Shown piece by piece: positions 271 to 60,275 of a stretch of DNA of 64,000 nt. Each line of letters starts with the position of its first letter. The first letter of the stretch is position 1. The position numbers and the translations under genes are program-made. A model generated the notes under the pieces. That model was not told the DNA's origin, searched no databases, and was given only the letters and a program-made list of their open reading frames with translations. The stretch lies in contig CAVOMZ010000016.1 of NCBI GenBank assembly GCA_963697135.1, positions 19,640 to 83,639 on the forward strand, written 5' to 3'. The DNA comes from an uncultured Chloroflexia bacterium. Lineage in GTDB: Bacteria > Chloroflexota > Limnocylindria > Limnocylindrales > CSP1-4.

Positions 271-458
271 GAGCGCAGAAAGCAACTTGTTCTCCTCTTT
301 ATGATCGTTTGTTTTCAATCCAACCTCTCTTCATCCCACGACTGGGCGTTGTGAGCGCCTGGGGATTTGAGAAGAGCTTATGGGACAGATTGTTGCTACG
401 AAGTAAAGGCGGCCGAATGCTACTAACAAAGCCGTCTAAGCGGCTCCCTCTTCTTGCG

Positions 459-798
459 AGGAGGGCAGGAGGCTTCACCACACCCGTGAGCCGATGAAAT
501 TGTCTGCCACACAGTGCAGTTTCAGAAGGAGGGCGGGAGAACTCCACCCCCCGGCCCCTCCTCGCCCGGCGAGGAGGGGTGCTGAGACGCCGTCGGCGCG
601 GCAGCCAGATTGCGAGGTCTCTGACAACCCAGGCCGCACCGACCCTCCTTGCCGGGCGAGGAGGGCGAGTCTCGACGGTCTCTCGTGATTCAGAGGGTGG
701 AGTTTCTCGTGACGACGCCCTGTCGTTCGACTTGAAGCAGGACGAGCACTGTCCCTTATCGCAAAAGGGCTCGCTGGTCCTTATTTTTCATGGGAGAA
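459..798 (-). repeat. family B hairpin-rich element, copy 1 (about 340 bp; strand is relative to copy 2)
   Basis: Homologous over its full length to the reverse complement of 17264-17610. Contains a nested family C module (539-705) with two CCCTCCTCGCC-CGG-GGCGAGGAGGG hairpins (555-579, 643-665). Confidence 0.8.
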
Positions 799-12492: not shown

Positions 12493-12673
12493 GAACTCCA
12501 CCCTGGCTTTGCCATCCCTCCTCGCCCGGCGAGGAGGGCGACGACAGGGGTAGTCTGGCAGAAACGAGCTTCCGTACAATCTGAGTAAGAGCAAACGAAG
12601 CAGATAGAGAGACCTCCGGCTGATGCTCAGGTGACCCTCCTCGCCGGGCGAGGAGGGGTTAGGGGTGGAGTTC
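12493..12673. repeat. family C module: two CCCTCCTCGCC hairpins bracketed by 11-bp inverted repeats
   Basis: GAACTCCACCC (12493-12503) is the reverse complement of GGGTGGAGTTC (12663-12673). Internal hairpins at 12516-12538 and 12635-12657. The same architecture is nested in family B copies (539-705; about 17347-17508). Confidence 0.7.
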
Positions 12674-12744: not shown

Positions 12745-13488
12745 TTAGGTCATGCGATTGGCGGTTACAACCTGACGGTTGCTGTATTCGTGGGTCACGG
12801 GGTTGAAGTCGCCTCCGCAAGTGATGATGGTCACCGTTTCGCTGGGTGTTGAAGTAACGACTGATACCCAGTCACCGGTTGTGGCGCTGACGGGCTTGCT
12901 ATCAACGATCGAGTACTTGTAGGTGACTCCGCTGACGCGCACGTCGATTTCGTCGCCCTTGTTGAGTTTGCCGAGGTCCCAGAGGACGGACTCGCAGGGC
13001 GGCTTGACGGTGCCGTTGTGGCAGGGGGCGAAGCCGGAATCGACGTGGCCGGCGAATACCGAGTTGCCACCGAGACCCGGACCGCCGCCAAGGCCGGGGT
13101 AGCCGGAGAAGTCGTAGTAGGCGATGTCGTCCTCGCCTGTGGGGTTGGGCATCTGCCCGTCAGGACCGACCTTGTGGTAGCTCAGCGGTGCATCGACGCC
13201 GATTTTCGGGATTAGCAGGTGGTCGTCCGCGGCCACGCTGGTCAGGCTGGCGATCGGTGGCGGCGGTGGTGGCGTGGGCACCACGGTGGCATCGGGCGGC
13301 GTCTCCGCTGTTGCTTCTGCTGCAGGGCTCGACGATGAAGTCGCTGAGTTCGAGCTGTTGTCGTTGCTCTTGCTGCCACCACCGCCGCCGCCACAGCTGA
13401 CTGCGAGCGCGCTGATGATGAGAGCCACGAATGCGGCGCGAAATGGATCGCGCCAACTACCAGTAGGGTGTGTGATTTTGCCTTGCAT
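12745..13488 (-). CDS. sortase-family transpeptidase with lipoprotein-type signal
   Basis: 247 aa. The N-terminus carries a lipobox (ISALAVSCGG) and a Ser/Pro-rich linker. Sortase-like LIPKIGVDAPL, AGHVD and the catalytic-Cys context TVTIITCGG are present. Confidence 0.65.
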   Translation of the reverse strand: MQGKITHPTGSWRDPFRAAFVALIISALAVSCGGGGGGSKSNDNSSNSATSSSSPAAEATAETPPDATVVPTPPPPPPIASLTSVAADDHLLIPKIGVDAPLSYHKVGPDGQMPNPTGEDDIAYYDFSGYPGLGGGPGLGGNSVFAGHVDSGFAPCHNGTVKPPCESVLWDLGKLNKGDEIDVRVSGVTYKYSIVDSKPVSATTGDWVSVVTSTPSETVTIITCGGDFNPVTHEYSNRQVVTANRMT

Positions 13489-13662
13489 GTGATCGAGTCC
13501 TCGAGTGCTAGACCCGCCCCCCCTTGTTTACATAGCCATTATTGAGGATAAGAGGATAGCCTTCGGGCTTGCAAGCTGAAGGCTGCTTTCTGCTACGGCT
13601 TCGCCATAGGGGAGCTCGCGAAACGGGGCTGAGGTACGGAGACAACGCTCCTTGCGGGCTCC

Positions 13663-14160
13663 CATGAAATGGAGTTGAAGATGGAGCCGGTTTTGCCGCG
13701 GTGCGCTATCGCGACCTTCCGCCCCCACCCTCTTATCGTAAGAGGGACCTGAGGGCACATCCCTCAGACTCCTTGCCAAAGGGGGCTGCGCCGCCCTGGA
13801 CTCCCTGCCGGAGAATTTCATCGCGTCCGGGAAGAACGGTCAGGCCGGGCGTTGGCGTCGTTCTCTGCGCCACATTTTCATTCGCTCGTGGTGTGGCGAA
13901 GCCTCATGTCCTTCCTCCCATGAAAATGGAGTTGAAGATGGAGCCGGTTTTGCCGCGGTGCGCTATCGCGACCCTCCGCCCCCACCCTCTTTAAATAAGC
14001 GGGAGTCTGAGGGCACATCCCTCGGACTCCTTGCTCCTTCGACCTGGCTCAGGACAGGGGCCAGGGCTGCGCCCCTCTGGGACTCCCTGTCTGAGCCTTG
14101 GCATCGCTCTCTGTGCTCACATTTTCATCGGCCCAGGGTGTGGCGAAGCCCCATGCGCTG
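13663..14160 (+). repeat. family A element array (2 units, period 256 bp)
   Basis: Units start at 13663 and 13919 with CATGAAA(A)TGGAGTTGAAG. Each has the core GCCGCGGTGCGCTATCGCGACC, CCGCCCCC, a variable hairpin, and the conserved hairpin CTGAGGGCACATCCCTC(A/G)G (13749-13767, 14007-14025). Confidence 0.85.
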
Positions 14161-14272
14161 CGGGGGCTTCGATCTCTTCGCTGTTTTGCGCGCAACCCTC
14201 TCTCTCCCTGGGGGAGAGGACTTTGATTCGTCTTCTTATCGGACGACTTTGGCTTCCAAAATGCCTCCTTCG

Positions 14273-15316
14273 CTATGACAGCCAGTAGGCGAAAGCGGTG
14301 CCGATGGGCGAGGCGTAGACGGGCACGTAGTCGATGAGGGTGGCGGGCGTGCCGTCCATGGCAGCGGAGGCGGCGATCCAGTTGCAGGTCTCTCGGGTGC
14401 CGCCCTGGGGGCCGCTGAACGCGGGCATGCCGGTGCTTGCCGGACCGCGACCCGTGAGCTGCTGTGAGGTGTCGCCGGCGGGGATGCGGTAGTTGTCGAA
14501 GTACTCCGCCATGGCTCGGATGTCGCCCTTCTCCATGAGCGCTAGTGATTCGCGGTCGAAGGTCTCGTCCAGGTAGGCATTGGTGGCGCCCGGCGTGTGC
14601 CAGAGGCCGCCGGAGCCGATGATGGCGACGCGGAGATCCTCCGGATACTCGTCGATAGCGGCGCGCACGGCCTTGCCAAACTCGTAGGAGCGCTTGCCGG
14701 TGGGCTGCGGTGCGTAATAGCAGTTCATCAGAATCGGGATGATCGGCGTCTTGAGATCGGTCAAAGTCTCCGCCGGGCGCATGAAGGCGTGCCCGAGGCC
14801 GTCCTCCGGCTTCGGCATATCCATCGAGAACGCCGGGTCGAAGCCACGGGCCATGAGCCCGCGCAGGATGCCGGTCGCCAGCGCTGGGTGGCCCATGATG
14901 CGGCCGCGCGTTGGTCCGGTGTGCGCCGGTGCGTTGGCTGCCAGGTCCGGCGCGTCGTCACGGCTGCGGCCGACGGAGTCGAACGCGTCGTGGGCCAGGG
15001 CCTCAGGCGAGGACAGGGCGCCCTCGAACTCCTCGCCGACGTAGACCGCGAAGGCGGGGAAGTTGCGGAAGTCGAAGCACTCCATCTGATCGTCGCCGAA
15101 GATGACGATGACGTCCGGGTCCGCCTCCGACAGCTTGGCCTTTAGCGTATCGAAGGCCGTGGCGATACGCCGTGATTTGTCCCTGCTGGCCTCGAGGTCG
15201 TCCATCGGTACATCGGCGCGGATCGGCCGGGTGGCACGCACGGCGTTCCAGTTCTCCGGCGGCATGAAGCAAAACGGTGTGTGGGCTGTGTTGAAGACGC
15301 CTACGACTTTGGCCAT
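14273..15316 (-). CDS. class III extradiol ring-cleavage dioxygenase, LigB family
   Basis: 347 aa. MAKVVGVFNTAHTPF... and ADPDVIVIFGDDQMECF fit the LigB-type pattern. Confidence 0.75.
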   Translation of the reverse strand: MAKVVGVFNTAHTPFCFMPPENWNAVRATRPIRADVPMDDLEASRDKSRRIATAFDTLKAKLSEADPDVIVIFGDDQMECFDFRNFPAFAVYVGEEFEGALSSPEALAHDAFDSVGRSRDDAPDLAANAPAHTGPTRGRIMGHPALATGILRGLMARGFDPAFSMDMPKPEDGLGHAFMRPAETLTDLKTPIIPILMNCYYAPQPTGKRSYEFGKAVRAAIDEYPEDLRVAIIGSGGLWHTPGATNAYLDETFDRESLALMEKGDIRAMAEYFDNYRIPAGDTSQQLTGRGPASTGMPAFSGPQGGTRETCNWIAASAAMDGTPATLIDYVPVYASPIGTAFAYWLS

Positions 15317-15440
15317 GGTCGTTACCTCCGAGTTTTCAGTTCTAGTTTTCAGTTATCAGTTCTTAGCTTCGCTGACGCCGAGTTTACAAGAACTCAGAAG
15401 GCTTATGCCCGGCGCCGTCTCCATATCTCCGAGTCCCCCC

Positions 15441-15468
15441 GTAGCTGCCCAGCATGCTGGGCAGCTAC
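15441..15468. repeat. family J perfect 28-nt palindrome GTAGCTGCCCAGCATGCTGGGCAGCTAC
   Basis: The sequence is its own reverse complement. It lies 104 nt downstream of the Rieske gene stop. A related copy is at 25098-25125, with weaker ones near 27331 and 35896. Confidence 0.8.
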
Positions 15469-15571
15469 AGGCTCGAGGCACGTGATTAGACAACTCGGTC
15501 CTTGTCAAAGCTCGAGGCGATTAAGCCCTCTCCGCGCACGGAAACGGCCTGGGGAGCGGCAGCCCCCGTCC

Positions 15572-17020
15572 TCAGCCGCCGAGGCAGCCGTCGAAGGTCC
15601 GAAAGTCCTTGCTACGCGCCGCGGGCACCGCGACCGGCACCTTTACGCCGAGTAGCCGCTGCACCATGGGGTCGTCCTCGGTGCCGAGGATGCGCCAGTC
15701 TTCGCCGGGGGCGAGGATTTTCTCGGCGGAGCGAATCGTGCTGAAGGGCAGCGATGGGTCGGTGGCGGGCGGCTCGATGCCCTTGGCGAGGTCCTTCGCG
15801 GCTTTGATCAGGATGGCGCGCAGCTTGATGATCGATTTGTCGGTGGTGCCGAGGTGCTCCTGCGAGCGGTCCCAGATCGGGCCGGCGGACTCGGTGACCA
15901 TGCAGTCCTGGCTGACGAAGTTGTCGATGCCGGTGTAGAGCGTCGTCTTCTGGCGCTCGCGGTCGATCTGGTAGTCGTTCTGGGCACGCCAATCGCGCGG
16001 GCGTTCGCCGCTCATCGCCAGGGCGTTGGTCGCGGGAGCAGGCTGGCCGGGTCTGGCGCCCAGCCCGCCGGCGCCGAAGTAGGGGTAGTTGGCAGGGAAG
16101 CTGGGACCGCCGAGGGAGCCCATGCGCCATTCGTTGCTCTGCTGCATCGGCTTCATCGACGTGGTTGCGAAGTTCCACCGCCAGCAGTTCTCGTCGTCGA
16201 TCGGCACGAAGAGGCCGCTGTTGGTGCCGAAGGGCACGGACGAGACCACGGTGGTGTAAGGGATGCAGAAGGCGCTGATGCGGGCGTGGGTGTGGCCGTT
16301 GGGCGTTGTGCGCATGCCGGCGTACTTGTAGCCGTACCAGGTGTCCTGCACTTCGAGATGCGGGGCGCGGTCGTGGGCCCAGAACTTCCAGGACATGGCG
16401 TTAGTGGGGTAGCCGGGCTGGTCCGAGCCGTCGTCCGGCGTGTCCAGAATGCCGAAGTACTGATGCAGCCAGGAGATGTGGGCGGAATCCATGTTGCCTT
16501 CCATGGACTGGACCCAATTGCAGTTGGAGAACATCTTGGCGGCGCGCTGCTCCTCCGGCGGCACGGTCTCGGTGCCGAAGTCGCGGAAGCCGGTCATCGT
16601 CTCCTGCGGACCCATGTAGGTCCAGATGACGCCGCCGGACTCGTGCGTAGGGTAGGCGCCGACGCGGACTTTGGACTTGAAGTTGCTTTCGGCGGGCTCC
16701 GACGGCATGTCGACGCAGGCGCCGGCGACATCGAACTTCCAGCCGTGGTAGACGCAGCGCAGGCCGCTCTCTTCGTTGCGGCCGAAGAACATCGAGGCGC
16801 CTCGATGCGGGCAGGCGTTGGCGAACAAGCCGACCTGGCCGTCCGTGTCGCGGAAGGCGATGAGGTCTTCGCCGAGCAGTCGCACGCGCACCGGCGGGCT
16901 TTCGGGCTCCGCGACCTCCGTCGAGAGCAAGGCGGGCGTCCAGTAGCGACGCAGCAGGTTGCCCATGAGCGTGCCTGGACCGACGCGGCAGAGGATGTCG
17001 TTGTCTTCTTTAGTCAGCAT
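15572..17020 (-). CDS. Rieske [2Fe-2S] aromatic ring-hydroxylating/demethylating oxygenase, alpha subunit
   Basis: 482 aa. Rieske motif CPHRGASMFFGRNEESGLRCVYHGWKF; mononuclear iron motif NWVQSMEGNMDSAHISWLH. Confidence 0.85.
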   Translation of the reverse strand: MLTKEDNDILCRVGPGTLMGNLLRRYWTPALLSTEVAEPESPPVRVRLLGEDLIAFRDTDGQVGLFANACPHRGASMFFGRNEESGLRCVYHGWKFDVAGACVDMPSEPAESNFKSKVRVGAYPTHESGGVIWTYMGPQETMTGFRDFGTETVPPEEQRAAKMFSNCNWVQSMEGNMDSAHISWLHQYFGILDTPDDGSDQPGYPTNAMSWKFWAHDRAPHLEVQDTWYGYKYAGMRTTPNGHTHARISAFCIPYTTVVSSVPFGTNSGLFVPIDDENCWRWNFATTSMKPMQQSNEWRMGSLGGPSFPANYPYFGAGGLGARPGQPAPATNALAMSGERPRDWRAQNDYQIDRERQKTTLYTGIDNFVSQDCMVTESAGPIWDRSQEHLGTTDKSIIKLRAILIKAAKDLAKGIEPPATDPSLPFSTIRSAEKILAPGEDWRILGTEDDPMVQRLLGVKVPVAVPAARSKDFRTFDGCLGG

Positions 17021-17263
17021 GGTTGGTTACCCTCGGCAGAGCTGCCACTCGATCTGTATCGAGCGTATTTCCAGCGAGCGTACAACGGAGGTGGTGCGTC
17101 GTCCACTTTGGAAGGGGGCGCCTGGGCCGAACTACGGCACGGCTCTCGCGGGAGATGGACGGTTGTGGTCAGGCTGCTTGAGCGCTTGCCTCACCCCAAC
17201 TCCTGTCTCCTTCGACAAGCTCAGCGCATGCTTCCGAGGAGAGGGACTCTCGTGGAGGCTTGG

Positions 17264-17610
17264 CCATCAAGGACCAGCGAGTCCTTTTGCGAGAAGGAAC
17301 ATTGCTCGTCCTGCTTCAAGTCGGACGACAGGGCATCGCCGCGAGAGAAACTCCACCCCGCGTCTCTGAATCACGATCGACCATCAAAACTCGCCCTCCT
17401 CGCCCGGCAAGGAGGGTCAGGGTTGCCTTGGGTTGTTAGAGACCGTGCGACCTGGCTGATGCGCCAACGGCGTCTGAGCTCCACTCGTCGCCGGGGGTTG
17501 AGTCCTCCCGCTCTCCTTCTGAGGCTGCACTGTGTGGCCGGCATTTCATTGGCTCAGCGGTGTGGCGAAGCCTCTCCCTTCCTCGGAGGGAGAGGGGTCA
17601 GGGAGTGAGG
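17264..17610 (+). repeat. family B hairpin-rich element, copy 2
   Basis: Reverse-complement homolog of 459-798. It ends with GGCATTTCATTGGCTCAGCGGTGTGGCGAAGCCTCTCCCTTCCTC (17540-17584), the same 3' module as family A units, followed by a family D hairpin (17571-17610). Confidence 0.8.
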
Positions 17611-17713
17611 TCATCCCCACCCGCTAACCCATCCCTGCGCGAGGACTGGTATCGCGACCGGCACCGCGATACGATGCGGGCGCTAAGAGCAGCTAAATAG
17701 AGAGGGGATCGCG

Positions 17714-18349
17714 ATGATCTACGAGATGCGCACCTACACCATCCAGCCGGCAAAGGTCCCGGCCTGGGAAGAGAACTTCATGGAGGCCTATAACAGCGGC
17801 CGCGCCAACTACTCCAAGTTGGGCGGACTCTGGCACACGGAGCTTGGCCCGCTGAACCAGGTGATCCACATCTGGCCCTACGAGAGCCTGCAGCACCGGG
17901 CCGACGTGCGTGCAAAGGCCTCCAAGGAGCTGGCCGGCAAGTGGCCGCCTTCGTTGTCCGCTACCCTCGTGACGGCGCAGGAGACCGACATCCTGGACCC
18001 GGTTAAGGGCATGAAGGATTGGGACGGCGAGCCGAAGGCATGGGGCGAGGTCTACGAGCTTCGCACTTACACCTACGCTCCCGGCGATGCCGCCAAGGCC
18101 GCGGCGGCCTTCGGTGAGGCGCTGGCGGGACGAGACGCTATCGCGCCGGTCGCGGGTATGTTCGTTACGGGCCAGGCAGGCAACCTCAATAAGCTGCAGC
18201 AGCTCTTCGCTTACAAGAGCTGGGACCATCGCGAAGAGGTCCGCGCCGAGTTCCGCAAGCAGGGCGTATGGCCACCCCACGCGGAAGTGCGCCCAATCAA
18301 CCAGCTCGTCCGCTTCCTGATCCCGGCTAAGGGTTCTCCCATCCACTAG
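17714..18349 (+). CDS. NIPSNAP family protein (two NIPSNAP domains)
   Basis: 211 aa. MIYEMRTYTI... and a second YELRTYTY... repeat, each followed by a HIW/WDHRE-type pattern. Confidence 0.8.
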   Translation: MIYEMRTYTIQPAKVPAWEENFMEAYNSGRANYSKLGGLWHTELGPLNQVIHIWPYESLQHRADVRAKASKELAGKWPPSLSATLVTAQETDILDPVKGMKDWDGEPKAWGEVYELRTYTYAPGDAAKAAAAFGEALAGRDAIAPVAGMFVTGQAGNLNKLQQLFAYKSWDHREEVRAEFRKQGVWPPHAEVRPINQLVRFLIPAKGSPIH

Positions 18350-18395
18350 GGCCGGATCGAACGCCAACGAGGCACGCCGAGTATCGACGAAGAGG

Positions 18396-18419
18396 AGGGT
18401 GCATCGAAAGATGCGCCCT
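18396..18419 (+). terminator. hairpin after the NIPSNAP gene
   Basis: AGGGTGCATC-gaaa-GATGCGCCCT: a 10-bp stem with one G:T pair and a GAAA loop, 47 nt after the stop, followed by TCTTGCGTCC. Confidence 0.4.
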
Positions 18420-18571
18420 TCTTGCGTCCTAGCGATGCTTCCGAAGCCCGGCCAAAAATGGAGCTGCAGGTCCTTCAGACCTGATCGGGCGGGGCGGAGG
18501 TGGAGGCGAGCGAAGGCCGTCTTCGCATCTCCGAGAGGTCTTACACCAACGATGTGCATCGGCCTAGACCG

Positions 18572-18692
18572 GTAGGAGCCCGTTCGAGAACGGCTCCGCG
18601 CTCATCGGCAGGCCCCTAGATGTGATGTCGCTGTCAGCCTGCATCCACCCCGGCCCCACCCCGATCAAGCCTAAAGGCATGCAGCTACATCG
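18572..18692. repeat. family G module (left copy)
   Basis: Starts with GTAGGAGCCCGTTCGAGAACGGCTCCGC (18572-18599), which is exactly the reverse complement of 20289-20316. The rest is homologous to the reverse complement of 20195-20288. Confidence 0.75.
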
Positions 18693-18784
18693 TTTTGGCG
18701 AGTCTCGGCGTTGGCCGGCCAGATCGTCTCCGTTGCTTCGACCGAGCGATTGACGCGTGACCGGAGGCCGCTCGGAGGTCGGAG

Positions 18785-19990
18785 CTAGATGGAGCTGTTG
18801 ATCTCCCACTTGACGCCGTCTAGCTGCTGCTCGCGCCATTTCTGGTGCTGCCGGGTGGCGGTCCTGGAACTCGGGCATGACTTCCTTGGCGAACATCTCC
18901 AGCGTCTCCATGACGTGCTCGTGCTTGCGGTAGGGCATCTGCACGGAGAAGTTGATGATGTCCATGTGCGCCTCTTCGAAGCGGCGCAGGTTCTCGCGCA
19001 CGAAGTCCGGTGAGCCGATGAAGTTGCCGCGGCGGCCGGCCCGGAAGAGCGCCTTTTGGGTCTCGTCCTCCGGCTCTGCTTCGTCGACGCGGGCCTTTTC
19101 GGCGCCTTCCGGGCCGAAGCGCTCGACGAACTCGCGGTCGAGGTGGGTCGCGGCCGTGATGCGAGCTCGCCGTTGCTGCGGGCCAGCGAGTAGCCGAAGA
19201 ACTGGGCGCCGCGCATGCCGCGCGCGATCGCCTCTTCGTTGGTCGTCGCCATCATGAGGTTGCCGCCCGCAGCCAGCGCGGGGTTTATCGCCACGCCGAT
19301 GGGGCGGCGGCAGTTGCGGATCAGCTCGTAGTAGCGGTCGACGCGCTCGTCGGCCTCGTCCGGCGTCTCGAAGCCGACGCCGAGGGCGCCGATGCCGAGG
19401 CGAGCGCCGACCATGACGGTCTCGAGGCGGCTGGCGGCGACCCAGACGGGCGGATGCGGCTTCTGCAGCGGCTTGGGGATGATGTTGCGCTCCGGCATGC
19501 TGAAGTGGATGCCCTCGTAGCCGGGGTAGGGCGTCATGGTCATCATGCGCAGGCACTCGCGCGTCGCTTCTTCCCAGGCTTCTTTCTTGTCCTCGCGCTT
19601 CGTGCCGAAGCCGCCGATCTCGGTGATCGTGGCGCCTTCGCCGGTGCCGAACTCGACGCGGCCGTTGGAGACGAGGTCGAGCGAGGCGATGCGCTCGGCG
19701 ACGCGCGCCGGGTGGTTGTGCTTCGGCGGCATGTGGACGATGCCGTGGCCGAGGCGGATGTTCTTGGTGCGCTGGGAGGCGGCCGCGAGGAAGACCTCCG
19801 GCGCGGAGGAGGTGCTGTACTCCTCCAGGAAGTGGTGCTCGGTCTCCCAGACGTAGTCGAAGCCGAGCTTGTCGGCGAACTCGATCTGCTCCAGGGCTTC
19901 CTGCCAGACCTTGTGCTCATCGTCTTCGTCCCATTGTTCCTGGTCCAGGGGCCGGGCGACGTTGAGCTGGAACTGGATGCCGAACTTCAT
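18785..19990 (-). pseudogene. LLM-class flavin-dependent oxidoreductase, reading frame broken twice
   Basis: The N-terminal 270 aa (MKFGIQFQLN...AQFFGYSLA) are in the frame of ORF 18785..19990. The middle part (ITAATHLDREFVERF...EMFAKEVMPEFQDRHP) is in the frame of ORF 18564..19556. The tail (HQKWREQQLDGVKWEINSSI*) returns to the first frame. Shifts are near 19172 and 18853. Confidence 0.8.
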
Positions 19991-20085
19991 GTTTTCAAGT
20001 CCCTCTCGTGTGGGTAGGTTGTCCGGGCCGATTATAGGTTACAAAGCTTTGATGTCTAGCTAGTTAAGCTTGGGTGCCTGGCGAT

Positions 20086-20316
20086 GATGTAGCTGCAGAT
20101 CTTTCAGACCTGCCTGGGGCGAGGGAGGGTGGATGCGGGCTCGCAGCGGAATCCCATCTCTGGGATGAAGGCAGCGCGAGGACGATTGAGGAGCGATGTA
20201 GCTTGCAGGTTCTTCAGACCTGCTGGAGGTGGTGGATGCCGGCTTGCAGCAGAATCGCATCTCTGGGATTGTCGATGAGGGCTGATCTGCGGAGCCGTTC
20301 TCGAACGGGCTCCTAC
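20086..20316. repeat. family G modules (right copies, inverted relative to 18572-18692)
   Basis: Two direct units (about 20086-20170 and 20195-20275), each with a CAG(A/G)T(C/T)-loop-GACCTG hairpin, followed by the 28-nt block 20289-20316. A further inverted fragment lies at 20415-20440. Confidence 0.7.
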
Positions 20317-20537
20317 GAGGGGCGGGGTACGGGTGGTGCGCTCGTTGGTGGCGGCCGCTCTCGTCGATGTGACGACGCCGTTCGCTCGCACCCGCCCAGC
20401 CCTGCCCGAGCGGGTCTGAAGAACCTGCAGCTACGTGGTGCATTGTCGGATGCACGGGTGTTGGATGATTGCAAGACGTGACGACGTTGTTGGTTTGCAC
20501 CGACCCGTCCCCACCGCGGGCGCGATGATCGCGGCCC

Positions 20538-21032
20538 CTACGGTGACGTCCCTGCCTTCGGCTTTGTGAGACGCGGACCGAGGGTTAGCTCTTCGACCTG
20601 GATGCTGCCGTTGTCGATGCGGAGGATGGTGGCGGTCTGGAGCTTGTGGAAGCCCTGGCGGCCGGCGGCACCCGGGTTGAGGTAGAGGACGCCATCGCGC
20701 CACTGCGAGAGCTGACGATGGCTGTGGCCGAAAGCGACGACCCGGGTCTCGGGTGACGGCCGGGCATGGGGCAGCTCGTGGACCAGATGAATTGCGATGC
20801 TTTCGAGCTCGATGTCGAGGTGCGTCGGCAAGCCGAGGCCGCCCAGAGGTACGTCGTTGTTGCCCTGGACGGCGTAAAGCGGTGCGAGCTGTCGCAGGCC
20901 ATCGAGGACGGCATCGCTGCCAACGTCGCCGGCGTGGAGGATGACATCGACGCCTTCGAATGCGGTGAGGAGCCTCGGGTCGAGGTAGCCGTGGGTGTCA
21001 GAGACGACGCCGATGAGCATGAGTGGCCACAC
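20538..21032 (-). CDS. metallophosphoesterase (YfcE/MJ0936-like)
   Basis: Motifs GVVSDTHG, HAGD, GNND and GHSH are present. The start is either GTG 21032 or ATG 21020. Confidence 0.8.
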   Translation of the reverse strand: MWPLMLIGVVSDTHGYLDPRLLTAFEGVDVILHAGDVGSDAVLDGLRQLAPLYAVQGNNDVPLGGLGLPTHLDIELESIAIHLVHELPHARPSPETRVVAFGHSHRQLSQWRDGVLYLNPGAAGRQGFHKLQTATILRIDNGSIQVEELTLGPRLTKPKAGTSP

Positions 21033-21127
21033 CTCGCCTCTCAGGGATATCCCAGGCGTTGGATGTTGGCCACGGGATTAACACCGGATTATCACGGGAT
21101 TTGGATTGAGTTTTGATCCTAGTCTGC

Positions 21128-21567
21128 CATGAAAATGGATTTCTCCCATCGAAAAACAACGCGTGGAGAATGACGCCCGCTTTGCTGCACGGCGCTGTCG
21201 CGACGTTCCGCCCCCACCCCCTTAAATAAAACGGGATCTGAGGGCACATCCCTCAGACTCCTTGCCAGCTGGGCTGCGCCCCTCTGGACTCCCTGCCAGA
21301 GAATTTTCATCCGCTCACGGGTGTGGCGAAGCCTCATCCCTTCCTCCCATGAAAAATGGATTTCTCCCATCGAAAAACAACGCGTGGAGAATGACGCCCG
21401 CTTTGCTGCACGGCGCTGTCGCGACGCTCCGCCCCCACCCCCTTAAATAAAACGGGGTCTGAGGGCACATCCCTCAGACTCCTTGCCAGCTGGGCTGCGC
21501 CCCTCTGGACTCCCTGCCAGAGAATTGTCATCCGCTCACGGGTGTGGCGAAGCCTCATCCCTTCCTC
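21128..21567 (+). repeat. family A element array (2 head-to-tail units, period 220 bp, about 98% identical)
   Basis: Units start at 21128 and 21348 (CATGAAAA(A)TGGATTTCTCCC). Conserved hairpins at 21238-21256 and 21459-21477. Each unit ends ...GGTGTGGCGAAGCCTCATCCCTTCCTC. Confidence 0.9.
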
Positions 21568-21607
21568 AGAAGAATCTCGTGAAAATCGTGTGTTAATCCC
21601 GTGGCTA

Positions 21608-21937
21608 CTATCGGGCTGCAGCGTTGGGACCGACTCCGGGCGGGGCGGGACCCTCGAAGCGGCCGATGCCGAGGGCCTGCTGGACGTTCCACTCGTAGAT
21701 CTCGCTGACGTCGCGGAGGCCGGCTTTGACCCAGGGGTGCTCGGCGACGAGGGCTCTGGCGGCGTCCATGTTGGCTGCGCGGAGGACCCAGATGCCGACG
21801 CCCTGCTGGGTGGGGCCGCTGAACAGGACGTTGCCGTTGTCGTGGTTCTCTTTCATCCACGCGAGGTTCTGATTCTCGATACCTCGGATCGCCTCGCGCG
21901 GGCCGATTGACTTGCTCATGACTACAAACCAGGCCAT
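21608..21937 (-). CDS. YciI-like protein
   Basis: 109 aa. The size and pattern (GNVLFSGPT...GVGIWVLRAANMDAARALVAEHPW) resemble the YCII domain. Confidence 0.6.
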   Translation of the reverse strand: MAWFVVMSKSIGPREAIRGIENQNLAWMKENHDNGNVLFSGPTQQGVGIWVLRAANMDAARALVAEHPWVKAGLRDVSEIYEWNVQQALGIGRFEGPAPPGVGPNAAAR

Positions 21938-22019
21938 TCATTCCTCCTCATGCTGCGTTAAGGTGCTCCAGCCCACATTGCCAGATTTCGCTTCACATCG
22001 CTATCGTGCTGCTCCGCCC

Positions 22020-22105
22020 TCACTCCCGGTTTAAGAGAAGGAGTCTGAGGGCACATCCCTCAGACTCCTTGGCAGAGTGGGCCCAGCGGCCCCTCTGCAC
22101 TCCCT
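22020..22105 (+). repeat. family A fragment (5'-truncated)
   Basis: Contains GGAGTCTGAGGGCACATCCCTCAGACTCC (hairpin 22045-22063) and the downstream block ...GGCCCCTCTGCACTCCCTGC. The GCTGCRCGGCGCT core is missing. Confidence 0.7.
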
Positions 22106-22117
22106 GCTGGCTGGCCG

Positions 22118-22690
22118 CCAATGTGGCTGCATGCCCTTAGGGTTGCGCGGGGCTGGGTGGCGCGGATGCTGCCGGTGAGCCGAAGCGCATGTCGGGGTTG
22201 GGCAGTGCGGTGTCTTGCTGCAATGGCTTGAGTGGAGGAGGTACGTGGCGCCCTCACCCTGGCCCTCTCCCCTGAGGGGGCGAGGGGATCTGTGCGCCGG
22301 ATCTCGGTTGGAGAATAGGCCATCGCCAATTGACGCCCAACGTGGCTGCTTGCCTTTAGGCTTGCGCGGGGTTGGGGGCGCGGATGCGGCCGGTGAGCCG
22401 AAGCGCCTGTCGGGGTTGAGCAGTGCGGTGTCCGTAGATTCGGACGTGTGCCCTCACCCTGGCCCTCTCCCCTGAGGGGGCGAGGGGATTTGTGCGCCGG
22501 ATCTCGGTTGGAGAATAGGCTATCGCCAATTGACGCCCAACGTGGCTGCTGCCTTTAGGCTTGCGCGGGGTGGGTGGCGCGGATGCGGCCGGTGAGCCGA
22601 AGCGCCTGTCGGGGTTGGGCAGTGCGGTGTCCGTAGATTCGGACGTGTGCCCTCACCCTGGCCCTCTCCCCTGAGGGGCGAGGGGATCTG
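22118..22690 (+). repeat. family E tandem repeat (3 units of about 200 bp)
   Basis: Units begin at 22118, 22326 and 22526 (CCAAT(TGACGCCCAAC)GTGGCTGC...). Each contains a family D hairpin GCCCTCACCCTGGCCCTCTCCCCTGAGGGG(G)CGAGGGGA (22250-22288, 22450-22488, 22649-22686). Confidence 0.85.
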
Positions 22691-22891
22691 CTTGGGTGGC
22701 TGATGAGCGTTTGTTGGCGAAGAGCGCGGAGTTGGCTTGAAGAGCGGACTCCACCTGGCCGCCGACCGCTGGTTCCCCTTGTCGAGCCCTCTCCATTGCA
22801 ATAATGGAGAGGGTTGGGGTGAAGCAAGCCCCGACGCTTTCAGCCTTATCAACGCGTCCGTTGGAGCCGTTCCCGGACAGGCTCCTACGGC

Positions 22892-23257
22892 GGGACAAGC
22901 CAGGGGCCTTCGCGGAGATGTGACTACGATGGTCGGTTGCACCCACCCGGCCCCCTCGGGCGCGATGAATCGGGCCCCTACGGCGAGTTGTTGCACGCGA
23001 CGGAACTTTTGAATCGTGTGGCAGCCGGGATACCGTGGCCGTCGGGGAGATGTGACTACGATGGTCGGTTGCACCCACCCGGCCCCCTCGGGCGCGATGA
23101 ATCGGGCCCCTACGGCGAGTTGTTGCACGCGACGGAACTTCTGAATCGTGTGGCAGCCGGGACAAGCCAGGGGCCTTCGCGGAGATGTGACTACGATGGT
23201 CGGTTGCACCCACCCGGCCCCCTCGGGCGCGATGAATCGGGCCCCTACGGCGAGCTG
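22892..23257 (+). repeat. family F tandem repeat (3 units of about 132-135 bp) abutting the NHL gene stop
   Basis: GAGATGTGACTACGATGGTCGGTTGCACCCACCCGGCCCCCTCGGGCGCGATGAATCGGGCCCCTACGGCGAG starts at 22915, 23047 and 23182. Units 1 and 2 are followed by diverged copies of the last 13 codons of the NHL gene. Confidence 0.85.
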
Positions 23258-24253
23258 CTACACACGGCGGAACTTCTGGATGGTGTGGCAGCCGGGGCGG
23301 AAGATGCCGCCTTCGTAGGAGGTCTTGCTGACTTCGCCGACGTAGATGTCGCCCCGGCTATCGACCCAGATGCCGTGGGGTGACGTGAGGTTGCCGGCGA
23401 TGCAGGGGTCTTCTTTGGGCGGCGCGCCGAAGCGGGAGATCAGCTTGCCGTTCATGTCGCGAATAGTCATGTGGGCCGGCCGCTCGTCGGGCCAGGCAAA
23501 GCCGGCGATGGATACGAGGCCGGGCTGCCAGTACATCTGACCGATGAAGACTTTCTCATCCTTGTCGATGAACAAGTCGCCGGGGCGCTGGACGTTTTCC
23601 CAGCAGTCGAGGAACTGGCCTTCAGGTCCGAAGATCTGGATGCGGTCGTTCTCGCGGTCGCAGACGAAGACGCGGCCGTCCGTGTGCACCCAGACGCTGT
23701 GCGGCAGCATGAACTGGCCGTGCTCCTTGCCGGGGCCGCCCCAGGACTGGAGCAGCTCTCCCGAGGCGGAGAAGCGGTGGATACGAGCGTTGCCATAGCC
23801 GTCGGAGACGTAGCGCTCGCCGTTGGGGGCGACCGAGAGGCGCGTCGGGCGGTTGAAGGGCCCGGCGCCGCGCTCGATGGTTAGCAGGTTGGCGTGCTGG
23901 CGAGTGGCGCTGTAACCGGTGTCGGAGGGCAAGTTGGGTGTGCCGAGGGTCTCCAGAAGCTCGCCTTCGAGGGTGAATTTGCGCACCGTGTGGTCGCCGT
24001 CGTCGGCGAGATAGAGGATGTCGTTGTGGATGGTGATGCCGTGGGGGCGGGTGAAGACGCCTTCGCCCCAGGACTTGATGTAGCTGCCGTCGCGGTTATA
24101 GACGAGCAGCGGGTGTTCGCCGCGGTTGAAGACGTAGGCGCGGTCTTGCGAATCTGTCGCGACGCCGGCGACGTCGCCGTGGCTCCAGCCGTTGGGGATC
24201 TGCTCCCAGTCTGGTACAAGCTCGTATCGGAAGTTGCCCTGGCCTAGCGGCAT
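23258..24253 (-). CDS. NHL-repeat beta-propeller protein (peptidyl-alpha-hydroxyglycine lyase-like)
   Basis: 331 aa. Repeated NHL-type blades (...VCDRENDRIQIFGPEG..., ...HTIQKF...) with GD/DG-rich turns. Confidence 0.65.
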   Translation of the reverse strand: MPLGQGNFRYELVPDWEQIPNGWSHGDVAGVATDSQDRAYVFNRGEHPLLVYNRDGSYIKSWGEGVFTRPHGITIHNDILYLADDGDHTVRKFTLEGELLETLGTPNLPSDTGYSATRQHANLLTIERGAGPFNRPTRLSVAPNGERYVSDGYGNARIHRFSASGELLQSWGGPGKEHGQFMLPHSVWVHTDGRVFVCDRENDRIQIFGPEGQFLDCWENVQRPGDLFIDKDEKVFIGQMYWQPGLVSIAGFAWPDERPAHMTIRDMNGKLISRFGAPPKEDPCIAGNLTSPHGIWVDSRGDIYVGEVSKTSYEGGIFRPGCHTIQKFRRV

Positions 24254-24365
24254 TTGGTTGGCTCTCCTCTGCGCGGCGTTTGTCGGTGCTTGGCTCAGGG
24301 CGGAGTTTACTCGGTTGGGGGGCAGACGGGCAGATGTATGTAGGATTGAATGACGAGAAAGCGTA

Positions 24366-24724
24366 GCCTCACCCCAACGCCTCTCCGTGCGCGGAGAGGG
24401 GCTTTAGCGCGCTCGCTTCGCGAGCGGCGGCCTCGGCGATTGAAAGCTCCTCGGCTTCGAATGCGAATTCTCGTCCTTACAGGGCCGGGTTTCATCAATT
24501 CCCCGAAGCTTCGAAGGGTTCCGCGGCAACTTTGAGTGCAGCACTAACTGTGGATTGATGCAGGAGAATTTCGAAAAGCCGGGTGGCCACGTCAGCGGAT
24601 TGCAACCCCGGCCTGGAAAGACGGGCATGAGCAGTTCTTGGCGAAGCTGTTCGCTATAGTCCCGCTGCTCGCGAAGCTACGGCTCCAAAGCTCCTCTCCG
24701 CGCACGAAGGGGTTGGGATGAGGC
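24366..24724. repeat. pair of inverted family D hairpins flanking about 290 bp
   Basis: GCCTCACCCCAACGCCTCTCCGTGCGCGGAGAGGGGC (24366-24402) is an imperfect inverse of GCTCCTCTCCGCGCACGAAGGGGTTGGGATGAGGC (24690-24724). Confidence 0.55.
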
Positions 24725-24807
24725 AACACGCTTCCTGCCTCGATGCGCGTTCGCCGTGCCCGCCTGCCCTCACCGCCGCCTGTGTGTCCACGAGACTTGG
24801 TTGCGCT

Positions 24808-24853
24808 GGGACTAGATCTCTCGCCTCGGTTGGCGCCGATGGTCGAACGACAG
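24808..24853. repeat. family H element
   Basis: GGGACTAGATCTCTCGCCTCGGTTGGCGCCGATGGTCGAACGACAG. Homologous copies at 28935-28980, 46390-46435 and 57920-57970. Confidence 0.75.
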
Positions 24854-25097
24854 AAGAGTTGGCGGTAGCGGGAGCGAATCGAGGGCTCGATGCTGTTGTT
24901 CCCTCTCCCAGGCAGGGTGAGGGCGAAACCTTCGTCCACTGCCGATCAATGTGCGCAGAGAACACGGTCGTCTCTTCGTCGTCGCGTGCGCCTCCCGTCG
25001 TCGAGAGATGTGACTACGTCGGAAGCCTGCACCCGCCCCTACCCCATGGAAGCCTGAAGGCATCCCCTACAGATGGGTGCGTCTGCGACAGAACGAA

Positions 25098-25125
25098 GTA
25101 GCGGCCCAGCATGCTGGGCCGCTAC
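25098..25125. terminator. family J perfect 28-nt palindrome GTAGCGGCCCAGCATGCTGGGCCGCTAC downstream of the TPP enzyme gene
   Basis: The sequence is its own reverse complement. It sits 26 nt after the stop at 25151. On the minus strand it is followed by TTCGTTCTGTC. It differs from the 15441 copy by a paired T/A to G/C change. Confidence 0.5.
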
Positions 25126-25150
25126 TTATTCGGGCATCTTTGCCGACTGG

Positions 25151-26824: not shown

Positions 26825-27080
26825 TCCTAACTCCTTCGAATTGCTTTTGGGTGTTTACCAGCCGGGGGAATGTCGGCGCTTAGCATAAGCCTTCGAGCCC
26901 TACCCTGGCTCCACCCCCCGAGGGCAATCGGGCAGGGTGGCAAACGGGCAATGGGGTGCGACGCTTGATCGCTTGCGGTTGTGGATTCGCTATCGAGGGG
27001 CGAAGCCGGGCGGCGGACGATGGACGTGCTTCCTTTCGCCGCAGAGCGCTGTCGCGTCTGGGCGTCTATCGCCTGAGCGG

Positions 27081-27180
27081 AAGGGGGATACCCCCTTGGA
27101 CCCCCGGCAGGGTGGCTGCGCTCGCCTTCCCCTGCACTCTACCAGGCGTTGCACCCTGGACCCGCAAAGGTACGTTGCCG
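27081..27180 (+). repeat. family I element (about 100 nt), copy 1
   Basis: AAGGGGGATACCCCCTTGGACCCCCGGCAGGGTGGCTGCGCTCGCC... is about 90% identical by eye to 30719-30820. Confidence 0.75.
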
Positions 27181-27543
27181 GTTCGGATTGGGTATTGTGG
27201 CGGACGAACTCTTCATTAGCGCTCAACCTAAGAGCACTACCGATACGGTCGCGCGGTAACGGCTCGAGCTCTTCTCTCTTCGCGGGGCCGCACGTCACTG
27301 CAGCGTTGGCCGTTATAGCGGCACCGGCCTCTGCCCAGCTTGCTGGGCAGCTACAGGCTGGATGTGCTTAATTCGCCGCCTGGCCGCCACCTGCCTGACT
27401 GACTTGGGCCATTGCCAGCGCGGTTGCGTGGTACATCGGCGGGTGGCCCTGAGGGGTAGCAGGGCGGGCGAGGCAGCCCTATACTCTGCTTGCTTTCTCA
27501 AACCCCGACCAAAATCGGCGAAGCCGGACCGAAAGGACGAATC

Positions 27544-28636: not shown

Positions 28637-28850
28637 CATGAAAATGGATTTCTCCCATCGAAAAACAACGCGTGGAGAATGACGCCCGCTTTGCTGCACG
28701 GCGCTGTCGCGACGTTCCGCCCCCCCTTAAATAAAGCGGGATCTGAGGGCACATCCCTCAGACTGCTTGCCAGCTGGGCTGCGCCCCTCTGGACTCCCTG
28801 CCAGAGAATTTTCATCCGCTCACGGTGTGGCGAAGCCTCATCCCTTCCTC
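28637..28850 (+). repeat. family A element, single unit
   Basis: Near-identical to the 21128 units, apart from a few substitutions and 1-nt indels. Conserved hairpin at 28743-28761. Confidence 0.9.
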
Positions 28851-32356: not shown

Positions 32357-32580
32357 TTAGCCCCGTGCCGTACTAAACCAGAGGCTGTAAAGCTCGCTGA
32401 ATACAGCCATGGAGGTTCTACCGAATCGTTGTTGAAGAAGATGGGCGACGGCTCAGCTGAGCAGATGTCCTTAGCAATTGTGCCACGAAGCGGCGCTTAG
32501 CCGCGAAGGATCGCTGTTACGGGAGCATCACGACTTGGCTAGAGTTGAGTCGATGGACCTTGTCCTGGCTGGCGTAACCA

Positions 32581-33226
32581 GGGCTCCGACGCAGGAGCCG
32601 GCTTTGCTGCGCGGCGCTATCGCGACGCTCCGCCCCCGCCCCCATTGGGGATGGGAGGTCTGAGGGCACATCCCTCAGACTCCTTGGCAAAGGGCTAGTC
32701 GCCCTCTGCACTTCCGAAGGAATGAAGGCGTAAGCGAAATGGCAAAACTGAGTGCGCGTCTTATGGGCATTCGCACGTCGAATTCTGGGGGCGCGAGTCC
32801 GGTGTGCGAGGGCTCCGACGCAGGAGCCGGCTTTGCTGCGCGGCGCTGTCGCGATGCTCCGCCCCCGCCCCCATTGGGGATGGGAGGTCTGAGGGCACAT
32901 CCCTCAGACTCCTTGGCAAAGGGCTAGTCGCGCTCTGCACTTCCGAACGAATGAAAGACGTAAGCGAAATGGCAAAATTGAATGCGCGTCTTAGTGGCAT
33001 TCGTCCGTCGAATTCTGGGGCGTGAGTCTGGTGTACGAAGGCTCCGACGCAGGAGCCGGCTTTGCTGTGCGGCGCTATCGCGACGCTCCGCCCCCACCTC
33101 CATTGGGAATGGGAGGTCTGAGGGCACATCCCTCAGACTCCTTGGCATAGGGCTAGTCGCCCTCTGCACTTCCGGCTTGGAGAATTTCATTGCCTCAGGG
33201 TGGGCGAAGCTTCATCCCTTCCTCTC
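32581..33226 (+). repeat. family A-related array (3 units, period about 229 bp, mosaic 3' ends)
   Basis: Units start at 32581, 32810 and 33040 (GGGCTCCGACGCAGGAGCCGGCTTTGCTGCGCGGCGCT...). Conserved hairpins at 32660-32678, 32889-32907 and 33118-33136. Only unit 3 ends with the ...GAGAATTTCATTGCCTCAGGGTGGGCGAAGCTTCATCCCTTCCTC module. Confidence 0.85.
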
Positions 33227-60124: not shown

Positions 60125-60275
60125 CGGCTGGGCAAATGGATGCCCGCTTTGCTGCGCGGCGCTATCGCGACGGTCCGCCCCCATCCCTTGAAAACAAATA
60201 ACCCGGGGGACACCGCCTGGAACTCCGGCAGAGAGTGGCTTCGCTTGCGCCGCTCTCTGCACTCTTTGCATGGCA
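60125..60275 (+). repeat. degenerate family A-like element
   Basis: It keeps the core GCCCGCTTTGCTGCGCGGCGCTATCGCGACGGTCCGCCCCC but lacks the GAGGGCACATCCCTC hairpin. Confidence 0.6.

What the first reader, a model, noticed from the sequence alone, without database searches (positions are those of the whole stretch)
17264..17610. Families A and B share the same termini, suggesting one superfamily of non-autonomous elements with interchangeable interiors
Three elements end with the same 3' module:
- Family B copy 2 ends with GGCATTTCATTGGCTCAGCGGTGTGGCGAAGCCTCTCCCTTCCTC (17540-17584).
- Family B copy 1, read on the minus strand, ends with GACAATTTCATCGGCTCACGGGTGTGGTGAAGCCTCCTGCCCTCCTC (complement of 459-505).
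- Family A units end with GAGAATTTTCATCCGCTCACGGGTGTGGCGAAGCCTCATCCCTTCCTC (for example 21299-21346).

At the other end, family B copy 1 (complement of 779-798) reads TTCTCCCATGAAAAATAAGG and family A units start CCCATGAAAATGGA. The two ends contain the short inverted pair ATGAAAAT/ATTTTCAT.

Conserved ends with unrelated interiors (about 215 versus 330 nt) are what is expected if a trans-acting transposase or RNA-processing machinery recognises only the termini.

One caveat: the G:U asymmetry in family B favours the strand opposite to the one favoured by the single U:G pair in a family A hairpin. The functional strand is therefore unresolved.
Basis: partly seen in the sequence, partly recalled or inferred. 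Interest (0 to 1): 0.6.

Follow-up and report, generated by a model that had tools for sequence, protein, structure and literature searches.

The report
Shared end-modules of mosaic intergenic repeats
Two unrelated-looking non-coding repeat families in an uncultured soil Dehalococcoidia-like bacterium do carry the same 43-45-base tail and a 12-base head, so they look like one set of modular, probably mobile, intergenic mosaic repeats, a known kind of element in a lineage where it has not been described.

Summary
A 43-45-nt block, (A)TTT(T)CAT..GCTCA..GGTGTGGCGAAGCCTC..CCTTCCTC, occurs exactly 8 times in the window. Each time it is the last module of a family A or family B element.

A 12-nt head, CTCCCATGAAAA, occurs 6 times, always at a 5' end. 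B2 keeps only CCAT of it. A and B interiors are no more alike than shuffled sequence.

The block is conserved as sequence, not as a fold. Near-identical A copies at different loci, in the window and in soil-metagenome contigs, begin and end at these two modules. The conserved flanks are CTC on the left and RSAANRANA on the right.

The modules are also separable:
- a 3-unit array carries one block;
- two A cores have none;
- related MAGs carry only the A hairpin;
- one contig has a half-block chimera.

My best reading is composite mosaic repeats of the BOX/BIME/NIME type, whose end modules are probably recognised in trans and which recombination reshuffles.

No mobilising enzyme was found. The block is absent from the GTDB representative genomes, JGI metagenome contigs and IMG/VR.

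This is a new member of a known kind, of modest interest.

The parts
458..504 (-). 3' terminal block of family B copy 1
Evidence: nhmmer E=5e-16.
785..796 (-). 5' block CTCCCATGAAAA of family B copy 1
   Evidence: Exact match. B1/B2 homology starts just 3' of it.
539..705 (-). Nested double-hairpin module inside B1, bounded by GAACTCCACCC inverted ends. The same module stands free at 12493-12673.
   Evidence: Alignment; sequence.
13659..13670 (+). 5' block of A13k unit 1 (CTCCCATGAAAT)
13871..13916 (+). 3' block of A13k unit 1. A truncated extra GAGAATTTCATCGCG and a ~50-nt linker precede it.
13915..13926 (+). 5' block of A13k unit 2. It shares CTC with the preceding 3' block, giving a head-to-tail junction.
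14118..14155 (+). 3' block of A13k unit 2. The CCTTCCTC end is replaced by a GAAGCCCC..GGGGCTTC hairpin.
17264..17268 (+). CCATC, the only remnant of the 5' block in family B copy 2
   Evidence: B1/B2 alignment
17347..17505 (+). Nested double-hairpin module inside B2, partly degraded
17540..17584 (+). 3' terminal block of family B copy 2. Its CCTCTCCCT pairs with AGGGAGAGG at 17592-17600.
   Evidence: A soil contig's homology stops exactly at 17584.
21124..21135 (+). 5' block of A21k unit 1 (CTGCCATGAAAA)
   Evidence: Soil contigs with other left flanks begin to match at 21127.
21299..21346 (+). 3' block of A21k unit 1
   Evidence: Soil contigs match only 21303/4-21346.
21344..21355 (+). 5' block of A21k unit 2, overlapping the previous block by CTC
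21520..21567 (+). 3' block of A21k unit 2, followed by AGAAGAA
28633..28644 (+). 5' block of the solo A28k element
28804..28850 (+). 3' block of the solo A28k element, followed by AGAATGG
32559..33174 (+). Three tandem 229-nt A-core units without a 5' block. The internal units carry a different joint instead of the 3' block.
33180..33224 (+). Single, degenerate 3' block closing the 33k array
   Evidence: nhmmer E=2e-14
21999..22105 (+). A-core fragment joined to a different repeat family, with no 3' block
60139..60260 (+). Diverged A core without the hairpin and without the 3' block

Best explanation
Families A and B are composite, non-coding intergenic mosaic repeats that share end modules. 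The head is 12 nt (CTCCCATGAAAA). The tail is 43-45 nt (ATTTTCAT..GCTCA..GGTGTGGCGAAGCCTC..CCTTCCTC) and is followed by a short purine-rich stretch (RSAANRANA).

**Shown**
- The tail is always the last module of an element.
- It is conserved as primary sequence without a conserved fold.
- Together with the head it delimits the unit that has recently multiplied.
- Tandem units are joined head to tail through a shared CTC.
- Modules also occur apart from one another.

**Inferred**
- The tail and head are the sites that a trans-acting recombinase or transposase, encoded elsewhere in the genome, binds and cuts.
- Insertion is orientation-specific, next to a CTC and in front of an RSAA-type sequence. 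Each inserted copy re-creates such a site at its own 3' end, which would explain how arrays grow.
- Ordinary recombination at short shared motifs swaps interiors and linkers between copies. That would explain why one tail is found on unrelated interiors.
For: **The modules are real and terminal**
- There are 8 blocks and 6 heads, far above chance.
- Every block is followed either by unique DNA or by the next unit's head.

**Boundaries of recently spread copies**
- A21u1, A21u2 and A28k are 95-98% identical, with unrelated flanks.
- Soil-metagenome contigs carry further copies whose homology starts at |CTCCCATG (21127, 28633, 13914) and ends at CCTTCCTC| (21346, 17584).

**Conserved flanks**
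- Left flank: C, T and C at positions -3, -2 and -1 in 7/7, 7/7 and 6/7 loci (P 3e-4, 7e-6, 5e-3).
- Right flank: position 3 is A in 10/10 (P 4e-8), position 4 is A in 9/10 (2e-6), and positions 7 and 9 are A in 7/10.

**Junctions and orientation**
- The same exact junction CCTTCCTC|CCATGAAAA occurs in two diverged subfamilies, A13k and A21k, which are about 61% identical. It also occurs in soil contigs.
- 7 of the 8 blocks lie on the + strand.

**Sequence conservation, not a fold**
- Only a 6-pair mini-hairpin is predicted (-4.1 kcal/mol), with 0 covarying pairs.
- Block identity between A21 and B (84-86%) equals that between B1 and B2 (84%). It exceeds that between A13 and A21 (72-79%).
- The interiors are unrelated.

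**Precedent**
- BOX elements are modular, with terminal boxA and boxC and a variable number of boxB. In S. suis, alternative end modules surround the same interior (PMC3049150).
Against: - No mobilising gene was found. The 30 longest open reading frames scanned show no transposase or recombinase Pfam domain.
- No empty site or presence/absence polymorphism was obtained. The nearest relative locus (81% amino-acid identity) lacks B2 but is too diverged to give a boundary.
- The inverted pair ATGAAAAT/ATTTTCAT is short and is internal on the 3' side.
- There is no variable target-site duplication.
- The head is missing in B2 and in the 33k array.
- Internal array units and two cores lack the tail.
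- One soil contig carries a half-block fused to a TTCGAC..GCTCAG module. Recombination alone could therefore have spread the block.
- The flank statistics rest on only 7 to 10 loci, some of them from the same subfamily.
Confidence: 0.55

Rival explanations
1. Recombination patchwork only. The block is one of many small modules in this repeat-rich genome. Microhomology-mediated recombination or gene conversion joined it to unrelated neighbours, and no enzyme recognises it as an end.
For: - The modules are separable: one block for a 3-unit array, and cores without a block.
- Relatives L130 and L131 carry only the A hairpin sub-module.
- One contig has a half-block chimera, TTCGACAGGCTCAG|GGTGTGGCGAAGCC. 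The TTCGAC..GCTCAG module recurs at 4 intergenic sites.
- Several alternative linkers precede the block.
- Block relatedness does not follow the interior family.
Against: - The block is terminal in every copy seen, and no solo copy was found.
- Near-identical A21-type copies at at least 5 loci are cut off exactly at the head and the tail.
- The CTC left flank and the RSAANRANA right flank are conserved.
- Two diverged subfamilies share the same head-to-tail junction.
Confidence: 0.25
2. Host cis-element. The block is a binding site for a host protein, or another regulatory DNA/RNA signal, kept by selection wherever these repeats sit. It is not a mobility signal.
For: - A 14-nt core, GGTGTGGCGAAGCC, is almost invariant and has no fold, as expected for a protein-binding site.
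- Both B copies point their block at the start of a same-strand gene 130-190 nt away.
Against: - The A copies sit between convergent genes or behind gene ends, so there is no consistent position relative to genes.
- The genes downstream of B1 and B2 are unrelated.
- The block is absent from 185,579 representative genomes and from JGI metagenome contigs. This is unusual for a host regulatory site.
- It always comes attached to a repeat.
Confidence: 0.1
3. Structured RNA families that share a 3' processing or stability signal. A and B would be transcribed, and the common tail would be an RNA-level signal.
For: - The interiors are rich in hairpins, with compensatory-looking changes.
- G:U-compatible changes on the + strand occur in the mini-hairpin.
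- The A core GCTTTGCTGCAC can pair with GTGTGGCGAAGC using three G:U pairs.
Against: - No Rfam match, even at E<=1.
- 0 covarying pairs in the block.
- Block-to-interior duplex energies are not better than shuffled controls in most copies (z -0.5 to -2.5).
- The minus strand folds as well as or better than the plus strand in most copies.
- No RNA run holds the sequence.
- Orientation relative to neighbouring genes is mixed.
Confidence: 0.05

Closest known systems
BOX elements of Streptococcus pneumoniae and S. suis (boxA - boxB(n) - boxC; boxE/boxF ends in S. suis), PMC3049150
   Same: - Non-coding intergenic composite repeats built from discrete modules.
- Fixed terminal modules and an interior that varies or repeats in tandem.
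- Different module combinations coexist in one genome.
- The mobilising enzyme is uncertain.
- Elements are found nested in and next to other repeats.
   Different: - No sequence similarity.
- Here one pair of ends surrounds unrelated interiors. In S. suis, different ends surround the same interior.
- The ends here are strongly asymmetric (12 nt against 45 nt) and are not good inverted repeats.
- Whole elements, not only an inner module, are arrayed head to tail.
- The DNA is GC-rich.
BIMEs (REP-containing mosaic elements) of enterobacteria and Neisserial intergenic mosaic elements (NIMEs)
   Same: A mosaic of short conserved modules in intergenic DNA, in variable order and number, located in spacers between genes.
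   Different: BIMEs are built around palindromic REPs. The shared block here is not a palindrome and shows no conserved hairpin. The description of BIMEs and NIMEs rests on my own knowledge and on the background section of PMC3049150.
MITEs mobilised in trans by an IS with matching ends (e.g. RUP/IS630-Spn1, Nezha/ISNpu3; PMC3049150 background)
   Same: - Small, non-coding, hairpin-rich.
- Multiple near-identical copies with sharp common boundaries.
- Families with the same ends and different interiors are typical of MITE superfamilies.
   Different: - No true terminal inverted repeats.
- No variable target-site duplication; CTC is constant on both sides.
- Not AT-rich.
- No partner IS identified.
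Site-specific, orientation-specific inserters without classical inverted ends: the IS110/IS1111 family (short core repeated at both junctions, subterminal repeats in IS1111) and IS200/IS605-derived PATEs (insertion 3' of a fixed short sequence). Comparison from my own knowledge.
   Same: - The same short sequence (CTC) lies at both junctions.
- One conserved flank motif.
- Asymmetric ends.
- A single orientation and head-to-tail arrays.
- The 3' inverted-repeat arm is subterminal.
   Different: - No DEDD or Y1 transposase gene was seen in the window.
- No IS605-type RNA match in Rfam.
- The two ends do not carry similar subterminal hairpins.

Membership tests
Composite mosaic intergenic repeats (BOX / BIME / NIME type) | Built from discrete modules that recur in different combinations and numbers | tested here: met
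   - The head, A core, hairpin, linkers and tail occur in at least 5 combinations.
- A 3-unit array carries one tail.
- Some cores have no tail.
- One contig has a half-block chimera.

Composite mosaic intergenic repeats (BOX / BIME / NIME type) | Non-coding and confined to intergenic spacers | tested here: met
   No conserved reading frame runs across copies; frames stop at different places (read). All 8 blocks lie between the annotated genes.
Composite mosaic intergenic repeats (BOX / BIME / NIME type) | Dedicated terminal modules that bound the element | tested here: met
   The block is always the last module and the head always the first. Homology between loci stops there.
Classical MITE | Terminal inverted repeats at the very ends | tested here: not met
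   The only inverted pair is the 8-nt ATGAAAAT/ATTTTCAT (up to 12 nt in A13k_u2). The 3' arm lies 35 nt inside the element. The pair forms in 1 of 7 minimum-energy folds.
Classical MITE | Target-site duplication that differs from copy to copy | tested here: not met
   The flanks are constant: CTC on the left, and CTC as the last three bases of the tail. No variable direct repeat was seen.
Classical MITE | A partner IS in the same genome with matching ends | not testable with these tools
REP / REPIN with RAYT | A 20-40-nt imperfect palindrome with a conserved GTAG or CGTC tag, usually as inverted pairs | tested here: not met
   The block has no palindrome and no such tag.
IS200/IS605-derived PATE | Similar subterminal hairpins at both ends | tested here: not met
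   The 5' end folds as CCAT-GAAA-ATGG. The 3' block has only a GUG-GGC/GCC-UAC mini-stem. The two are unrelated.
IS200/IS605-derived PATE | Insertion 3' of a fixed short sequence, without duplication | tested here: inconclusive
   The left flank is CTC in 6 of 7 loci. The right flank is conserved too, which this family does not predict.
IS110/IS1111-type site-specific element (non-autonomous derivative) | The same short core at both junctions, a sequence-specific target and a fixed orientation | tested here: inconclusive
   CTC lies at both junctions, the right flank is RSAANRANA, and 7 of 8 blocks are on one strand. The sample is only 7 to 10 loci.
IS110/IS1111-type site-specific element (non-autonomous derivative) | A DEDD transposase and its guide RNA encoded in the genome | not testable with these tools
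None was seen in the window.
Integron cassette / attC | A 3' recombination site that folds as a long imperfect hairpin with R''/R' core sites, in an array next to intI | tested here: not met
   The junction has ATTTTCAT..37 nt..ATGAAAAT but no extended stem. The arrays are short and dispersed. No integrase domain was found in the window.
Known structured RNA family (Rfam 15) | Match to a covariance model | tested here: not met
   0 matches at gathering thresholds over the whole window, and 0 at E<=1 over 13400-33400.

The most novel reading that the evidence does not exclude
The head and tail are the two halves of one recombination site, CCTTCCTC|CCATGAAAA, which is whole only at head-to-tail junctions or in an excised circle. 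The elements would be cassette-like non-coding modules. An unidentified site-specific enzyme (IS110/IS1111-like or integrase-like) would insert them at a CTC core, in front of a sequence that resembles the head (RSAANRANA against CCATGAAAA). Any interior could then ride between the two halves.
Probability: 0.2. Interest if true: 0.55.

Novelty: new member of a known kind. Interest (0 to 1): 0.3.

Why it matters
It explains why assemblies of this soil lineage break in intergenic DNA. It also gives a concrete handle for finding the mobilising enzyme: a 45-nt tail, a 12-nt head, and a CTC / RSAANRANA insertion context. If insertion proves to be site-specific with a split recognition site, this would be a compact natural example of non-coding cargo carried between two halves of one site. 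As it stands, it adds one more lineage to the list of bacteria with BOX/BIME-like mosaic repeats.

Tried and rejected
**Closed or exhausted tools**

**Searches for the modules elsewhere**
An HMM re-scan of all 137 fetched loci found only the window's own Logan contig.
- A more specific block pattern gave 2 chance hits in genome contigs, 9 chance hits in JGI metagenome contigs and 1 coding-region chance hit in IMG/VR.
- The A hairpin 24-mer found two Dehalococcoidia MAGs that carry only the hairpin sub-module. It had no hit in IMG/VR.
- B-interior and A-core patterns gave 0 hits.

**Empty-site attempts**
- The exact NIPSNAP protein gave only the same sequence.
- The 81%-identical homologue (L132) lacks B2 but is too diverged.
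- The 67%-identical homologues are not syntenic.
- Soil runs hold this organism only at depth 2-5, as 150-300-nt contigs. No skipping joints at the elements were seen, and nothing matched B2's interior or the 33k end.

**RNA-level ideas**
- No RNA runs hold the sequence.
- No Rfam hit.
- A conserved fold of the block is not supported.
- The 5'/3' closing stem forms in 1 of 7 folds.
- Pairing of the block with an interior segment is not better than shuffles.

**Other ideas dropped**
- Extending the shared region to 66 nt is not significant.
- A small ORF on the minus strand (GAGG..ATG) has stops at different places in different copies, so I rejected it.
- A promoter or terminator reading fails: there is no T-run after the hairpins, and the position relative to genes is inconsistent.

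Full report
**Setting.** The window has 63% G+C. Its intergenic spacers are packed with repeats: 39 direct-repeat families and 11 tandem arrays. Protein matches and the only two genome hits to the family A hairpin point to an uncultured Dehalococcoidia-like bacterium. No genome-wide census or search for an autonomous partner was therefore possible.

- The quoted strings are present. The B1 string sits on the complement of 458-504, one base off the stated coordinates.
- The core 16-mer with up to 3 mismatches occurs 7 times against 1.07 expected.
- A profile built from the copies finds exactly 8 blocks (E 1e-13 to 1e-18) and nothing else above E=0.04.
- The head CTCCCATGAAAA occurs 6 times against 0.2 expected. 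It is always at the 5' end of an A unit or of B1.
- B2 keeps only CCAT at that place.
- A and B interiors are as alike as shuffled sequence: 39.9% against 40.7 +/- 1.4.
- The shared tail is 43-45 nt long. My attempt to extend it to 66 nt was not significant.
- Family B also contains a nested double-hairpin module with its own inverted ends. The same module stands free at 12493-12673. This agrees with earlier notes.

**What kind of conservation is it?**
- The block has no conserved secondary structure. RNAalifold gives a 6-pair mini-stem (-4.1 kcal/mol) and no covarying pair.
- Pairing of the block with interior segments is not better than with shuffled interiors.
- Rfam gives nothing, even at E<=1.
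- Block identity between A21-type and B copies (84-86%) equals that between B1 and B2 (84%). It exceeds that between A13 and A21 (72-79%). Block relatedness therefore does not follow the family defined by the interior.
- This is the pattern of a sequence-specific site that is either under common constraint or exchanged between elements.

**Where are the boundaries?** A21u1, A21u2 and the solo A28k are 95-98% identical, with unrelated flanks. Logan contigs of soil metagenomes carry further copies.
- Homology to the window begins at |CTCCCATG (places 21127, 28633, 13914), behind different left flanks.
- Homology ends at CCTTCCTC| (places 21346, 17584), in front of different right flanks.
- The left flank pooled over 7 loci is CTC (P 3e-4, 7e-6, 5e-3 per position).
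- The right flank pooled over 10 loci reads RSAANRANA. Position 3 is A in 10/10 (P 4e-8), position 4 is A in 9/10 (2e-6), and positions 7 and 9 are A in 7/10. This resembles the start of the head (CCATGAAAA).
- Two subfamilies that are only about 61% identical (A13k and A21k) have the same exact head-to-tail junction, CCTTCCTC|CCATGAAAA. Soil contigs show it as well.
The boundaries coincide to within 3 nt on the left and about 4-9 nt on the right.

**Is the block an independent small repeat?** No solo block was seen. All 8 window copies, and the additional soil-contig copies whose upstream sequence was reported, follow an A-type interior, an A13-type linker or a B interior. The modules are nevertheless separable:
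- The 32559-33174 array has three 229-nt core units, a different joint between them, no head, and a single degenerate block at the very end.
- The cores at 21999-22105 and 60139-60260 have no block.
- The two related MAGs carry only the hairpin sub-module.
- A13k_u1 has a truncated extra TTTCAT followed by a 50-nt linker.
- One soil contig has TTCGACAGGCTCAG fused to GGTGTGGCGAAGCC... The first half of the block is replaced there by a different module that also occurs at 14038, 17211, 61937 and 52565(-).
- Recombination between modules is therefore clearly at work.

**Mechanism.**
- My best reading (confidence about 0.55) is that these are composite mosaic repeats whose head and tail are the sites used by a trans-acting recombinase or transposase.
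- Insertion would be orientation-specific, next to CTC and in front of an RSAA-type sequence. Recombination would reshuffle the interiors.
- The anatomy, the boundaries and the flanks are shown. The enzyme and the insertion chemistry are inferred.
- The main rival (0.25) is that recombination alone has pasted the block onto unrelated neighbours.
- A host cis-element (0.1) and an RNA-level signal (0.05) have little support. Positions relative to genes are mixed. The genes downstream of B1 and B2 are unrelated. No RNA data exist.
- The 30 longest open reading frames scanned show no transposase or recombinase domain.

**Distribution.** The block pattern is absent from 185,579 GTDB representative genomes, from JGI metagenome contigs and from IMG/VR. 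The A-core and B-interior patterns are also absent from the representative genomes. The module set is therefore lineage-restricted as far as exact-pattern scans can tell. The window's own genome is evidently not in that collection.

**Comparison with known systems.** The closest analogues are the following.
- Pneumococcal and S. suis BOX elements. These have terminal boxA and boxC and a variable number of boxB. In S. suis, alternative boxE/boxF ends surround the same interior (PMC3049150).
- BIMEs and NIMEs.
- MITE superfamilies that share ends.

The elements fail the defining MITE tests: there are no true terminal inverted repeats and no variable target-site duplication. They also fail the REP/RAYT, PATE-hairpin, attC and Rfam tests. 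A constant CTC at both junctions plus a conserved flank recalls site-specific inserters such as IS110/IS1111, but that could not be tested here.

**Verdict.**
The shared terminal modules and the interchangeable interiors hold up. A dedicated enzyme or RNA processing is unproven, and the 5' end is weak.
- This is a new member of a known kind of element, of modest interest (0.3).
- The most novel reading still open is a split recombination site carried as head and tail. I put it at about 0.2 probability.

Noticed in passing
window 21062-21101 and 21573-21612: A 40-nt inverted repeat (83% complementary) brackets the A21k dimer. The array therefore sits in what would be the ~30-nt loop of a large palindrome, between a metallophosphoesterase gene and a 128-aa ORF (I9).
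   Followed up: no
window 14038-14052, 17211-17224, 61937-61951, 52565-52578(-): A CC-TTCGAC-N2-3-GCTCAG module recurs in intergenic DNA. It resembles the first half of the 3' block (TTTCAT-NN-GCTCAG). One soil contig has it fused directly to the second half of the block.
   Followed up: partly
window 13806-13870: A13k unit 1 carries a truncated GAGAATTTCATCGCG, then a ~50-nt linker (..TTGGCGTCGTTCTCTGCGCCAC), then the full block. This looks like an insertion or duplication at the TTTCAT motif. The same linker type precedes the block in A13k unit 2 and in several soil contigs.
   Followed up: partly
window 21179-21190 with 21322-21333 (also 28688-28699 with 28825-28836): The invariant A-core segment GCTTTGCTGCAC can pair with the invariant block segment GTGTGGCGAAGC over 12 positions, using three G:U pairs, on the + strand only. 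The energy is not significantly better than shuffled controls.
   Followed up: yes
window 17571-17600 and 440-475(-): In both B copies the pyrimidine-rich end of the block pairs with a purine-rich stretch just downstream. In B2 this is CCTCTCCCT / AGGGAGAGG, 9 bp. B homology therefore runs about 15 nt past CCTC, and no T-run follows.
   Followed up: partly
window 21555-21941(-): The longest ORF to the right of the A21k array (128 aa, no Pfam hit) has its stop codon inside the 3' block (21555-21557). If the gene is real, the element supplies its last codons. A 109-aa ORF in another frame (21608-21937) is the alternative.
   Followed up: no
window 1-64000: GC skew is positive in 15 of the 16 4-kb bins, with the remaining bin (52001-56000) at about zero. 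All A units and 7 of the 8 blocks lie on the G-rich strand. This fits a strand-specific process but comes from one replichore segment only.
   Followed up: partly
L132 1-200 (ENA soil contig, NIPSNAP homologue with 81% amino-acid identity): The relative's upstream spacer shares only about 45 nt next to the start codon with the window. Beyond that it carries a different GC-rich hairpin-like sequence in place of B2, so repeat content turns over quickly between close relatives.
   Followed up: partly
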